A DNA stretch of 64,000 nt from the NCBI RefSeq assembly GCF_024502345.1, contig NZ_JALDNN010000001.1, one strand, 5' to 3'. This DNA is from Escherichia coli. GTDB taxonomy: Bacteria; Pseudomonadota; Gammaproteobacteria; Enterobacterales; Enterobacteriaceae. How positions within the stretch are numbered: position 1 is the first letter of the stretch; each line of letters starts with the position of its first letter. A program made the position numbers. Below are positions 49,201 through 52,200 of this stretch, one piece after another.

Positions 49201-52200
49201 TTATGGGCATCACGCCGGATTGCGCATCAATGGCGCTGATTTTTCCGTCCTGCAGATGAATCTGCCACAGCCCCTCTTTGCCTGGTAACCGGGCGTTAAT
49301 AATTGTTTGTAAAGCGTTATTCGACACTGTTAGCCTCCACATGCGTCATTGTTGCTGTCGTTTTACGATTCAAAATCGGGTTAAGGATCAGATAGCTCAG
49401 CGCGCCACCTAATACCGCGTTGACCGGAACAATTCCCGGTAACCAGTGGCCTGCAGCAATCCCCAAGGCGACCGCCAGAATCGCCACCCAATTGACACTC
49501 ATCATACGCGTGGTCGCAAAGTGCTCATAGCGGCGACGGTTCATCAGATAGTCGGCGATGATCACGCCCCCTACCGGAGGAATAGCTGCCGAAAGGAAGG
49601 TCAGCCAGCCGACAAAATTGTTATACAGCCATAAGGCGCAGACCGTACCGATAATACCGTTAATCACCGAAAGGGTTTTGCTCGACATCCCGGTGATGTT
49701 GGCGAAACCTAAACCCGACGCATAGAGTGCGTTATCGTTGGTGGTCCAGATATTCAGCCCGAGCACCACAATCGCAGGCAACAGCAGGCCCTGAGCAATC
49801 ATCACATCAGAGATATCCGCCATCCCCAGTGCCGCCGCTCCCGCTGCACCGAAAATAAACATCAACGAGTTGCCGAGGAAAAAGGCCACCATCGCCACCA
49901 GCACCGCCAGTTTGGCATTGCGACCAAAGCGGACAAAGTCAGCGGTAAGCGTACCCGCGCTGATAAATGACCCCACAACCAGCGCCAGCGCGACATTGAA
50001 ATCTAATGGTTGTGTGGGAACGACCGCTTTTAAGGCGTCCAGGCCGCCCATGCCGTTAACGGCCAGCCACACGGAATAACCGCCAAGACAGGCGATCGCC
50101 GGAACCGCAATCACCGAAAGAACTGTCAGCGCCGAAATGCCAAAGAAGACGGTGACGGTCATCAGTAAACCGGAAACGGCAATCAGCAAATTAATATCCA
50201 GCCCGGTTGCCTTACCCACCGGAATGGCAAACATCGCCACGCCAACGCCAAACCAGCCAACCTGGGTGCCGCCCAGCAGCAGTGAAGGCAGCCATGAGCC
50301 TTTAACACCAAACGAGAAGCGAGCAAGAAGATGGGTGGTCAGGCCGGTTTTTGCGCCAATGTAACCGAGAAATGAAGTGTAAATACCGAGGAGAAGATTG
50401 CCGATGAGAACTGCGAGGAAGAAATCATGATAGCTAAGACCGGTTCCGAGAGTGCCGCCGGTCCACATACTGGCGGAAAAGAAGGTTAATCCCAGCATGA
50501 CGAACGTCAATGCCAATACCCCTTTCCGCGCCGACTGCGGGACTGGCCCCTGGCTAAAGTTGTTATCTTGCGACACGAAATTCCCCCTTTTTGCTGTTTG
50601 AAACCCAAAAAATCCGCCGCATTCTATTCATCTGAAGATAAAAAGCAATCGTTTTCGTAGGGGAATATATTTTTTATATGAATGAGTGCGAAAAGGTGGG
50701 GGAAAATTATCGGTGTAAAAACAGTGGGCAGGCATGATAAGACGCGCCTGCGTCGCATCAGGCATCTGAGCATGGTGTCGGATGCGGCGCGAGCGCCTTA
50801 TCCGACCTACGGTTCAGGCCTGTAGGCATGATAAGACGCGCCTGCGTCGCATCAGGCATCGGCGCATGGTGTCGAATGCGGCGCGAGCGCCTTATCCGAC
50901 CTACGGTTCAGGCCTGTAGGCATGATAAGACGCATCAGCGTCGCATCAGGCATCGGCACACGGTGTCGGATGCGGCGCGAGCGCCTTATCCGACCTACGG
51001 TTCAGGCCTGTAGGCATGATAAGACGCGTCAGCGTCGCATCAGGCATCGGCGCATGGTGTCGGATGCGCCACGCGACGCATCCGACAATACCTTACTCTT
51101 CCATCGCCTGGCGGATCTGATCCAACGACGCAGGATCATCAATGGTCGTCAGATCCCCAGGATCGCGTCCTTCGCAAATCGCCTGGATCGTGCGGCGCAG
51201 CATTTTTCCGGATCGCGTTTTTGGCAATTGCGAGACAAACCAGACGTGCGCCGGGCGACCAAAGTTGCCAATCTGGCTGTCCACCAGCGCCATAATTGCC
51301 TTCTCTTGCGAATGCGCCACATCACGATCTTCCAGACTGTCGCTCTCTTTCGGAATGACAAACGCCACCGCCACCTGCCCTTTCAGCGCATCTTTCACCC
51401 CAACCACAGCCACTTCGGCAACGCCCGGATGACTGGAGATACTCTCTTCAATCTCGCGCGTCCCCAGCCGATGCCCGGCAACGTTAATCACATCGTCAGT
51501 GCGCCCGAGAATAAAGTGATAACCGTCAGCATCGCGGATGCCCCAGTCAAAGGTGGCGTATACCGGGCGGGAAAACAGCGACCAGTACGTCTTCACAAAG
51601 CGGTCGTCGTCACCCCAGATGGTCTGAATACAGCCCGGCGGCAGCGGCCCTTCCACCACCAGCATCCCTTTCTCATTGACGCCACACGGCTCGCCGGTGA
51701 CTTCATTGAGCAACTGCACGTTGTAGCCATACATCGGCACGCCGGGGCTTCCCAGACGCGTCGGCCTGTCGTCCAGACCGCGAGCAATCGCCATAATCGG
51801 CCAGCCGGATTCGGTCTGCCAGTAGTTGTCGATAACCGGCACATCCAGCGTATTGCTTACCCAACTGGCGGTTGGCTCGTCCAGCGGCTCCCCCGCCAGA
51901 TAGAGTACTTCCAGCGACGAAAGATCGTGTTTGCGAATTTCAGCGGTAGGGAATTTTTTCAGCACGCGAATGGCGGTCGGCGCCGAGAACATCCGGCTAA
52001 CCTGATATTTCTCGACGATTTTCCACCACACGCCGCAGTCCGGCCAGGTCGGTAATCCTTCGTAAACGATAGTCGCCATCCCCGCCAGCAGCGGCGCGTA
52101 GACGATATACGAATGCCCCACCACCCAGCCGATATCCGAAGCACAAAAGAACACACCGCCCGCTTTGCCGCCAAAAATGGTGTCCATCGAGGTCGCCAGC

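What the first reader, a model, noticed from the sequence alone, without database searches (positions are those of the whole stretch)
50725..51085. Tandem BIME array between codB and prpE
About 3.5 tandem repeats of a roughly 94 bp REP-pair unit lie between the starts/ends of the cod and prp operons. Long BIME arrays are binding sites for IHF and DNA gyrase and are hotspots for length variation. Translated, the units produce spurious RRERLIRPT-containing ORFs in the six-frame track.
Basis: seen in the sequence. Interest (0 to 1): 0.2.

Follow-up and report, generated by a model that had tools for sequence, protein, structure and literature searches.

The report
Variable BIME-2 repeat array (REP26)
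Between the end of the propionate gene prpE and the start of the cytosine-permease gene codB lies a run of paired palindromic REP elements; this is the already catalogued E. coli element REP26, an ordinary BIME-2 array, notable only because its unit count ranges from 0 to 11 among strains.

Summary
Window 50730-51087 holds three full 94-bp units plus a 76-bp terminal partial unit (TRF: period 94, 3.6 copies, 95% matches). Each unit is a z2 REP and a y REP in opposite orientation, joined by two short linkers, which is the defining BIME-2 architecture. The array lies 6 nt downstream of the prpE stop codon and 153 bp upstream of the codB start; both genes are on the - strand. It is orthologous to REP26 of E. 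coli K-12.

The length-variation claim holds strongly. Sequenced alleles carry 0, 1, 2, 3, 5, 7 or 11 full units. An evenly spaced sample of 60 records gave N=0 in 16, N=1 in 27, N=2 in 5, and N=6-7 in 7.

The IHF claim is not supported. IHF sites belong to the long linker of single-copy BIME-1 elements, and no IHF consensus occurs here. Gyrase binding is a literature expectation for BIME-2 and was not tested.

The most likely role is a structured 3'-UTR element of prpBCDE that stabilises the mRNA and acts as a partly Rho-dependent attenuator and insulator in front of codBA. Unit number probably changes by in-register unequal recombination or slippage.

Verdict: a known kind of element and a known locus; low interest.

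The parts
50728..51087 (.). Whole BIME-2 array (orthologue of K-12 REP26): 3 full 94-bp units plus a 76-bp terminal unit
   Evidence: TRF, the repeat finder, unit dissection, lag identity. K-12 REP26 lies at 354600-354770 between prpE and codB.
50728..50763 (-). z2 REP no. 1, the leftmost, next to the codB promoter flank. Its flanking tetranucleotide is degenerate (GCAG on the + strand instead of GTAG).
   Evidence: 3 mismatches to the Z2 consensus. Consensus taken from PMC11208160. Sequence read.
50776..50810 (+). y REP no. 1, followed by CTAC
   Evidence: 30/35 ungapped identity to the Y consensus. Hairpin of -18.8 kcal/mol for the equivalent unit 3.
50822..50857 (-). z2 REP no. 2 (GTAG on the + strand)
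   Evidence: 34/37 ungapped identity to Z2; alignment to Z1 needs 7 gap columns.
50870..50904 (+). y REP no. 2
   Evidence: 29/35 identity to Y.
50916..50951 (-). z2 REP no. 3
   Evidence: hairpin of -15.5 kcal/mol.
50964..50998 (+). y REP no. 3
51010..51045 (-). z2 REP no. 4
   Evidence: hairpin of -14.8 kcal/mol.
51058..51087 (.). Terminal atypical palindrome TGTCGGATGCGCCACGCGACGCATCCGACA. It has a y-like 5' arm, a 12-pair stem with no internal mismatch in the RNA fold, and no CTAC. On the prpE-sense RNA the stem starts 6 nt after the stop codon. It is present in every E. coli allele examined, including those with no full unit.
   Evidence: Inverted-repeat arms. Only 24-25/35 identity to Y. 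RNA hairpin of -25.1 kcal/mol, z = -5.8. Conserved in L001-L015. Absent in the divergent lineage L016.
50731..50995 (-). Three 77-nt y-linker-z2 units that match Rfam naRNA4 (RF02564) above the gathering score: 50731-50807, 50825-50901, 50919-50995
   Evidence: 69.0, 65.2 and 70.4 bits against a gathering score of 59.5; full-length model match 1-77.
51093..52979 (-). prpE (propionyl-CoA synthetase), last gene of prpBCDE; the array is its 3' flank
   Evidence: ORF; RefSeq annotation of homologues.
49317..50576 (-). codB (cytosine permease), first gene of codBA; the array ends 153 bp upstream of its start
   Evidence: ORF; annotation.
50652..50729 (-). C-rich, G-poor stretch directly downstream of the array on the prpE-sense RNA (31% C, 6% G, C/G 4.8); candidate Rho loading (rut-like) region
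   Evidence: Composition. Corresponds to the K-12 in-vitro Rho-binding region 354711-354878, which overlaps REP26 by 59 bp (Table S16 of bioRxiv 10.64898/2026.03.23.713779).
50664..50692 (-). Only sigma-70-like promoter match in the region (TTCGCA-17-TATATT); candidate codB promoter, outside the array
   Evidence: consensus match only; 0.5 expected by chance.

Best explanation
Identity (about 0.97): this is the strain's allele of REP26, the BIME-2 element in the prpE-codB spacer of E. coli.

Anatomy, read on the prpE-sense (-) strand:
- stop codon, then 6 nt, then an atypical perfect palindrome;
- a 13-nt linker, then a z2 REP;
- the unit [11-nt spacer flanked by CTAC/GTAG, y REP, 13-nt linker, z2 REP] repeated 3 times;
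- a C-rich, G-poor stretch, then the codB promoter.

How the unit number changes (about 0.8, inferred): in-register unequal recombination or replication slippage between 94-bp units. The outer junctions stay fixed, alleles are mosaics of shared unit variants, and one allele carries a duplicated 4-unit block.

What it does (about 0.55, inferred by analogy with REP325 and other REPs):
- It is transcribed as the 3' UTR of prpBCDE.
- Its hairpins block 3'-to-5' exonucleases and so stabilise the upstream message.
- Together with the rut-like stretch just beyond it, the array attenuates read-through into codBA in a partly Rho-dependent way, keeping two differently regulated operons separate.

At the DNA level, the y REPs are probably transcription-independent gyrase sites, as shown for other BIME-2 elements (about 0.5, not tested here).

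None of these activities was measured for this locus.
For: Periodicity.

z2/y composition:
- Ungapped identity is 33-34/37 to Z2 and 29-30/35 to Y; alignment to Z1 needs 7 gap columns (consensus sequences from PMC11208160).
- Each unit aligns full-length to the Rfam naRNA4 model, which is the y-linker-z2 unit of REP325.

BIME-2 definition and known copy-number variability: PMC3333891.

Orthology to K-12 REP26: same flanks, and REP26 coordinates 354600-354770 between prpE and codB.

Copy-number series and junctions:
- Alleles with 0, 1, 2, 3, 5, 7 and 11 full units share fixed junctions.
- The sample of 60 is.
- Unit patterns include I-KLAB-KLAB-c-A-D in O157:H7 LSU61. Window units B and F are shared with other strains.

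Structure conservation: among 25 distinct units, variable columns are 7 of 55 in stems, 7 of 13 in the 13-nt linker, and 3 of 8 in the loops.

Hairpin stabilities: -14.8 to -25.1 kcal/mol.

Transcription signals: no intrinsic terminator and no promoter inside the array.

Rho evidence:
- The rut-like stretch has C/G 4.8.
- In K-12, an in-vitro Rho-binding region on the prpE-sense strand overlaps REP26.
- REP325 was shown experimentally to be a partly Rho-dependent attenuator and an upstream-mRNA stabiliser.

Gyrase: cleavage sites are enriched in BIME-2 elements, with a preference for y REPs.

Persistence: a divergent Escherichia lineage (about 95% identical flanks) also has a BIME-2 array in this spacer, with period 99 and 4.4 copies.
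Against: - No expression, RNA 3'-end, Rho, gyrase or half-life data exist for this locus in this strain.
- Harris et al. stress that REP effects depend on context, and that terminal REPs are not generally associated with longer mRNA half-lives.
- Strains with no full unit (about a quarter of the sample, including BL21) show that the tandem part is dispensable.
- The supplementary files held for the gyrase Topo-seq paper do not mention prpE or codB.
- The conserved stems could reflect homogenisation among copies rather than selection.
Confidence: 0.85

Rival explanations
1. The array is a cluster of naRNA4-type nucleoid-associated small RNA genes. Their transcripts, with HU, would bridge cruciform DNA and condense the chromosome.
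For: Three units exceed the Rfam RF02564 gathering score on the prpE-sense strand. Qian et al. 2015 proposed this role for the homologous REP325 units.
Against: - The Rfam model is simply the y-linker-z2 unit of a BIME-2, so any such unit matches it. A second array in this window scores even higher, 85-88 bits.
- No promoter-like site lies in the array.
- A 2026 preprint whose authors include Sankar Adhya, an author of the 2015 naRNA4 paper, reports that REP325 and naRNA4 do not measurably compact the nucleoid or mediate REP-REP contacts.
Confidence: 0.07
2. The array is an IHF-binding BIME (the RIP/RIB type, BIME-1) that bends DNA between the two operons.
For: General literature statements that REP/BIME elements bind IHF.
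Against: - BIME-1 is defined as z1+y, single copy, with a long L linker carrying the IHF site.
- Here the REPs are z2+y in tandem, with 11-13-nt linkers.
- No WATCAANNNNTTR match occurs in 50577-51092, and none within one mismatch inside the array.
Confidence: 0.02
3. The array is essentially selfish or neutral DNA: REP doublets that were seeded by the RAYT transposase and have since drifted in number. Under this view it has no host function at this site beyond the single conserved terminal hairpin.
For: - The tandem part is absent in about a quarter of sampled genomes and ranges from 0 to 11 units.
- Six of eight palindromes keep the GTAG/CTAC tetranucleotide and the stem mismatch that TnpA-REP needs in vitro.
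- The array also serves as a landing pad for another mobile element, IS621.
Against: - An array persists at this spacer across about 5% flank divergence.
- Stems are conserved relative to loops and linkers.
- Experimental effects have been shown for REP325.
- This view is not exclusive of the main explanation.
Confidence: 0.3
4. The repeats are a repetitive protein-coding gene, or a CRISPR-like array.
For: ORFs of 33-61 aa, and one of 377 aa, start inside the repeats.
Against: - The 94-bp period is not a multiple of 3.
- The ORFs match no Pfam family.
- The 377-aa ORF is antisense to prpE.
- Whole units, including the 'spacers', are about 95% identical, so no unique spacers exist.
Confidence: 0.01

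Closest known systems
REP26 of E. coli K-12 MG1655 (354600-354770, prpE-codB spacer)
   Same: - Same flanking genes and the same left and right junction sequences.
- Same z2/y unit and the same terminal palindrome.
   Different: - K-12 has 1 full unit plus the terminal unit (171 bp); the window has 3 plus the terminal unit (358 bp).
- The window's leftmost z2 has lost GTAG and the exact IS621 target, both of which K-12 retains.
- Flanks are only about 97% identical.
REP325 / naRNA1-6 (yjdM-yjdN BIME-2 array of K-12; Rfam RF02564 naRNA4)
   Same: - Tandem array of 77-nt y-linker-z2 units between two co-oriented genes.
- Units match the Rfam model full-length above the gathering score.
- REP325 was shown to stabilise the upstream mRNA and to attenuate read-through in a partly Rho-dependent way.
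   Different: - A different locus and different linkers and spacer.
- The y REP here carries a GCC-to-GTC / GGC-to-GAC compensated stem change and a different loop (5-6 mismatches to the consensus).
- Scores are 65-70 bits, against 85-88 bits for the more canonical mhpE-mhpT array.
- No functional data exist for this locus.
BIME-2 family (Bachellier/Gilson classification; gyrase-cleaved arrays such as sucC-sucB and tldD-yhdP)
   Same: z2 and y REPs alternate in inverted orientation, with short linkers, in a tandem multi-copy arrangement whose unit number differs between strains.
   Different: - The last palindrome next to prpE is an atypical perfect hairpin without CTAC.
- Gyrase cleavage at this particular array has not been documented in the sources I could read.
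BIME-1 / RIP-RIB (IHF-binding BIME)
   Same: Built from REPs; extragenic.
   Different: It needs z1+y, a single copy and a long L linker with an IHF site; none of these is present here.
REPIN/RAYT (TnpA-REP) system
   Same: The y and z2 REPs carry the GTAG tetranucleotide and the stem mismatch that TnpA-REP requires for binding and cleavage in vitro.
   Different: - No RAYT gene lies next to the array.
- The unit-variant patterns point to in-register homologous events rather than transposition.

Membership tests
BIME-2 | Composed of y and z2 REPs | tested here: met
   The z-type palindromes match Z2 at 33-34/37 without gaps, while Z1 needs 7 gap columns. The y-type palindromes match Y at 29-30/35. 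Consensus sequences from PMC11208160.
BIME-2 | REP and inverted REP alternate, separated by short linkers, as multiple tandem copies | tested here: met
   z2 matches on the - strand and y on the + strand, alternating. The linker is 13 nt, and an 11-nt spacer lies between CTAC and GTAG. There are 3.6 copies of 94 bp. Definition.
BIME-2 | Conserved GTAG/CTAC tetranucleotide at the foot of each REP | tested here: met
   Present at 3 of 3 y REPs and 3 of 4 z2 REPs. Absent at the leftmost z2 (GCAG) and at the terminal palindrome.
BIME-2 | Extragenic location | tested here: met
   Lies entirely between the prpE stop (51093) and the codB start (50576).
BIME-2 | Unit number varies at a given locus among strains | tested here: met
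   0, 1, 2, 3, 5, 7 and 11 full units were confirmed in sequenced alleles. Span-based sample of 60 records.
BIME-2 | Bound and cleaved by DNA gyrase, preferentially in y REPs | not testable with these tools
   Literature only; this locus is not mentioned in the held supplements.
BIME-1 (IHF-binding RIP/RIB) | z1 + y REPs, single copy | tested here: not met
   The REPs are z2, not z1, and the element is tandem.
BIME-1 (IHF-binding RIP/RIB) | Long L linker carrying an IHF site | tested here: not met
   The linkers are 11-13 nt. No WATCAANNNNTTR match occurs in 50577-51092, and none within one mismatch in the array.
REP26 (K-12 locus) orthologue | Same flanking genes and junction sequences | tested here: met
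   The prpE and codB flanks are shared with NC_000913.3, where the gap is 329 bp against 516 bp here, a difference of about 2 x 94. REP26 coordinates.
Rfam RF02564 naRNA4 | Covariance-model score at or above the gathering threshold (59.5 bits) | tested here: met
   70.4, 69.0 and 65.2 bits on the - strand. The fourth, terminal unit scores 46.8, below threshold.
Rfam RF02564 naRNA4 | Exists as a discrete HU-binding RNA with a nucleoid role | not testable with these tools
   No expression data are available here; the role itself is disputed.
TnpA-REP (RAYT) substrate | GTAG 5' of the hairpin plus a mismatch in the stem (both needed for binding and cleavage in vitro) | tested here: met
   By sequence only. 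The y REPs read GTAG-GGTCGGAT-AA-GGCG...CGCC-GC-ATCCGAC. The terminal palindrome lacks both features. Cleavage itself is not testable here.
IS621 bridge-RNA natural target | Exact ATCAGGCCTAC in a REP | tested here: not met
   The window array has no exact site and 3 one-mismatch sites (ATCATGCCTAC). K-12 has 1 exact site in the leftmost z2, and IS621 sits exactly there in strains GZEC065 and MIN6.

The most novel reading that the evidence does not exclude
The unit number of this array (0 to 11) may act as a heritable, reversible dial. The sample is strongly bimodal: 0-2 units in most E. coli, 6-7 in an O157:H7-rich minority (up to 11 in one sequenced O157:H7 strain). The dial would set prpBCDE mRNA stability and the degree of Rho-dependent insulation of codBA from propionate-induced read-through. 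The invariant perfect hairpin 6 nt after the prpE stop codon would then be the fixed core element, and might also couple translation termination to mRNA fate. That would make REP26 a natural allelic series for testing the proposal that REPs are tunable 3'-UTR regulators.
Probability: 0.12. Interest if true: 0.4.

Novelty: already known. Interest (0 to 1): 0.1.

Why it matters
For genome annotation, it matters only as a caution:
- The region should be labelled as a REP/BIME-2 repeat.
- It should not be labelled as small-RNA genes, although Rfam naRNA4 scores above threshold.
- It should not be annotated as ORFs.

Biologically, the locus is a clean natural series (0, 1, 2, 3, 5, 6, 7 and 11 units with fixed junctions). 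That series could be used to test how REP number affects mRNA stability, Rho-dependent attenuation and gyrase recruitment between two co-oriented operons. Nothing here challenges current understanding.

Tried and rejected
- **Intrinsic terminator scan.** No hairpin is followed by a T-run on the prpE-sense strand, so the array is not a classical terminator.
- **Global RNA fold of the 411-nt region.** The minimum-energy structure pairs distant repeats with each other (ensemble frequency 0.0001). I judged it uninformative and used local hairpin folds instead.
- **Pfam scan of the repeat-derived ORFs.** Nothing found.
- **Gyrase Topo-seq supplements.** No mention of prpE or codB.
- **Ton-Hoang supplements.** These contain locus-by-locus BIME comparisons but are not held.
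- **Liang, Rudd & Deutscher 2015.** This paper concerns REPs within about 15 nt of a stop codon that lower translation through ribosome stalling. It could not be retrieved, so that idea rests on my memory only and is not used as evidence.
- **codBA promoter literature search.** It gave no mapped start site, so the promoter match at 50692-50664 remains a candidate.
- **Cross-species scan with a degenerate prpE 3'-end pattern.** It found only three loci. The two Citrobacter loci lack codB downstream and have no y/z REP matches there, so they say little about the origin of the array.
- **S/s/l/r linker names.** I did not assign them, because the two papers I could read use the names differently.
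Full report

Yes.
- Tandem Repeats Finder reports one array at 50730-51068: period 94, 3.6 copies, 95% matches, no indels, score 608.
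- The gap-free repeat finder gives three in-register 156-nt copies spaced 94 and 94 nt at 92-100% identity.
- As a numerical dot plot, self-identity of 50730-51087 is 0.909 at lag 94 and 0.871 at lag 188. All other lags average 0.26 (maximum 0.378). The best lag in 500 shuffles reached 0.389.

**2. Context**

The flanking ORFs are prpE (51093-52979, - strand) and codB (49317-50576, - strand), followed by codA. RefSeq annotation of the homologous loci in E. coli confirms the gene names.

Both genes read in the same direction. The array is therefore the 3' flank of the prpBCDE operon and lies upstream of the codBA promoter region. The 153 bp between the array and the codB start are AT-rich (38% G+C, against 62% in the array). 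They hold the only sigma-70-like match in the region, at 50692-50664 on the - strand.

**3. Anatomy**

Cutting the spacer at each repeat start gives three 94-bp units and a last 76-bp unit.

Each full unit holds two imperfect palindromes in opposite orientation. I compared them with the three E. coli REP sequences printed in the Methods of Durrant et al. 2024 (PMC11208160).
- One palindrome matches the 37-nt Z2 sequence at 33-34 of 37 positions without gaps. Alignment to the shorter Z1 needs 7 gap columns.
- The other matches Y at 29-30 of 35 positions.

The z2 REPs match the consensus on the - strand and the y REPs on the + strand. GTAG/CTAC tetranucleotides are present at six of the eight palindromes.

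A 13-nt linker joins the ends without the tetranucleotide. An 11-nt spacer (GGTTCAGGCCT) lies between CTAC and GTAG.

Rfam's naRNA4 model is the 77-nt y-linker-z2 unit of REP325 (PMC4550694). It aligns full-length to three units on the - strand at 65-70 bits, against a gathering score of 59.5.

According to Ton-Hoang et al. 2012 (PMC3333891), z2+y with short linkers in tandem copies defines BIME-2. By contrast, z1+y as a single copy, with a long L linker that often carries an IHF site, defines BIME-1. This array is therefore BIME-2.

**4. The end next to prpE is not a standard REP**

Positions 51058-51087 read TGTCGGATGCGCCACGCGACGCATCCGACA.
- The 5' arm is y-like, but the stem pairs perfectly and no CTAC follows. 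Identity to Y is only 24-25 of 35.
- As RNA on the prpE-sense strand it is the most stable hairpin of the region: -25.1 kcal/mol (z = -5.8), against -14.8 to -18.8 for the z2 and y hairpins.
- Its stem begins 6 nt after the UAA stop codon.
- It is present in every E. coli allele I read, including those with no full unit.
- It lacks both features that TnpA-REP needs in vitro, namely GTAG and a stem mismatch.

**5. Related sequences**

*Known element.* The element is the one catalogued as REP26 in K-12 MG1655 (354600-354770, tandem pair prpE to codB). This comes from the supplementary table of Harris et al. 2026 (bioRxiv 10.64898/2026.03.23.713779). In K-12 the spacer is 329 bp, against 516 bp here, a difference of two units.

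*Sequenced alleles.* Fifteen fetched loci gave the following counts of full units, always with the same left and right junctions:

| Full units | Strains |
|---|---|
| 0 | SCU-308, AST240 |
| 1 | K-12, MEI2O1-23 |
| 2 | ATCC 8739, O157:H7 M1300706002 |
| 3 | PS10-3, ET729, GDSC2227PM, the window |
| 5 | NCTC9112 |
| 7 | FDAARGOS_1291 |
| 11 | O157:H7 LSU61 |

*Sample of 60.* A flank-only query (700 + 700 nt) matched 5,233 records, and 4,907 of them had both flanks in one place. I took 60 rows evenly spaced down the ranking and inferred unit number from the span:

| Inferred full units | Rows |
|---|---|
| 0 | 16 |
| 1 | 27 |
| 2 | 5 |
| 3 | 0 |
| 6 | 1 |
| 7 | 6 |
| split, partial or odd | 5 |

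At least nine records share the window's length, so the three-unit allele is real but uncommon.

This sample is not random. It inherits the bias of RefSeq complete genomes, and only some spans were checked against sequence.

*Divergent lineage.* A separate GTDB species representative labelled E. coli has flanks about 95% identical to the window. It also carries a BIME-2 array in this spacer, but with period 99, 4.4 copies, a longer spacer and no terminal palindrome. Array occupancy of this spacer is therefore old, while its content turns over. In two Citrobacter genomes prpE is not followed by codB, and no y/z REP array follows it.

**6. How the number changes**

I labelled each distinct unit with a letter.
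- O157:H7 LSU61 reads I-K-L-A-B-K-L-A-B-c-A-D, which is a duplicated four-unit block.
- The window reads O-B-F-P. It shares unit B with LSU61 and unit F with NCTC9112.

Fixed outer junctions, in-register changes, block duplication and mosaic alleles point to unequal homologous exchange or replication slippage. They do not point to insertion of new REPs.

Among 25 distinct full units, variable columns number 7 of 55 in stems, 7 of 13 in the 13-nt linker and 3 of 8 in the loops. The hairpins are therefore preserved, by selection, by homogenisation, or by both.

**7. Likely function (inferred, not shown)**

- There is no promoter-like site inside the array, and no hairpin followed by a T-run on the prpE-sense strand. 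The array is therefore most simply the untranslated tail of the prp message.
- Immediately after it, the prpE-sense RNA has a 78-nt stretch with 31% C and 6% G (C/G 4.8), which is the composition expected of a Rho loading site.
- In K-12, a region recovered in an in-vitro Rho-binding screen (354711-354878, prpE-sense strand) overlaps REP26 by 59 bp and covers this stretch (Table S16 of Harris et al.).
- For the homologous REP325 array, the same study shows about 10-fold more downstream transcription when the array is deleted, stabilisation of the upstream message, a ladder of truncated transcripts, and partial sensitivity to bicyclomycin.

By analogy, REP26 most likely stabilises prpBCDE mRNA against 3' exonucleases. 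With Rho, it would also limit read-through into the separately regulated codBA operon.

At the DNA level, BIME-2 elements are enriched in gyrase cleavage sites. Cleavage prefers y REPs and does not depend on transcription (PMC6379681). This locus is not mentioned in that paper's held supplements.

A REP placed so close to a stop codon might also affect translation termination. I recall this from Liang, Rudd and Deutscher 2015 but could not retrieve the paper, so it stays a lead only.

**8.

- Correct: a BIME array, its position, length variation and spurious ORFs.
- The RRERLIRPT ORFs are confirmed. They match no Pfam family, and they recur in shifting frames because 94 is not a multiple of 3.
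- Not supported: IHF. It belongs to BIME-1, and the consensus WATCAANNNNTTR is absent from the spacer. It is also absent from the array with one mismatch allowed.

**9. Rivals**

- The Rfam hits could tempt an annotation as naRNA4 small-RNA genes. However, the model is just a BIME-2 unit. A second array in the window scores higher. The nucleoid role of naRNA4 is now contested in a preprint whose authors include Sankar Adhya, an author of the original naRNA4 paper.
- A purely selfish or neutral reading remains possible for the tandem part, because many strains lack it. That reading is compatible with the main explanation.

**10. Verdict**

Interest is low. Its only added value is as a well-defined natural allelic series.

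Noticed in passing
window 30435-30779: A second BIME-2 array lies between mhpE and mhpT: period 101, 3.4 copies, 94% matches. Its y and z2 REPs are closer to consensus (1-2 mismatches apart from one y REP with 4), and it scores 69-88 bits against naRNA4 on the + strand. It holds three exact IS621 targets (30508, 30609, 30710). Its length also differs among strains in steps of about 101 bp, and one strain (GTEN_24) has IS621 in it.
   Followed up: partly
L014 (NZ_CP048025.1, GZEC065) and L015 (NZ_CP069692.1, MIN6), prpE-codB spacer: IS621, the bridge-RNA recombinase element, is inserted in the leftmost z2 REP of this same array. The junctions read GGGTAG|IS621...|GCCTGATAAG, which is the natural target ATCAGGCCTAC. 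The window allele has only one-mismatch versions (ATCATGCCTAC) and no exact target.
   Followed up: yes
window 49317-54470 versus 10000-14000: The prpE-prpD segment is at most 98.0% identical to any of 5,224 matching complete E. coli genomes, and the cod/prp flanks are at most 98.6% identical. The hemB-ehaB segment, by contrast, is 99.7% identical to two chicken isolates. The window strain is therefore not in the complete-genome set, and its prp-cod region looks like a divergent or recombinant stretch.
   Followed up: partly
L011 (NZ_CP038336.1, O157:H7 LSU61) 1691-2958: This is the longest allele seen: 11 full units plus the terminal unit in a 1,268-bp spacer, containing a duplicated four-unit block (pattern I-KLAB-KLAB-c-A-D). 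Several O157:H7-type genomes in the sample have 7 units, but O157:H7 M1300706002 has 2.
   Followed up: partly
L016 (NZ_JAATUR010000022.1) 5346-5781: A genome labelled E. coli, but kept as a separate GTDB species representative (about 95% identical flanks), has a BIME-2 array in the same spacer. It has a 99-bp period and 4.4 copies, starts with a z2 REP 6 nt after the prpE stop, and lacks the terminal perfect palindrome.
   Followed up: partly
window 47926-48005: A z1 + y REP pair lies between codA and cynR. It corresponds to K-12 REP28 in the supplementary table I read. Its composition is BIME-1-like, but only about 16 nt separate the two REPs. I did not check it for an IHF site.
   Followed up: no
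window 50922-52055 (+): A 377-aa ORF starts inside the array and runs antisense through prpE. It matches no Pfam family and is almost certainly an artefact that gene callers could mis-annotate.
   Followed up: yes
E. coli genome collection: About 196-202 of 5,426 complete E. coli genomes have no match to the prpE/codB flanks or to prpE-prpD, so the whole prp-cod region is missing in roughly 4% of genomes.
   Followed up: no
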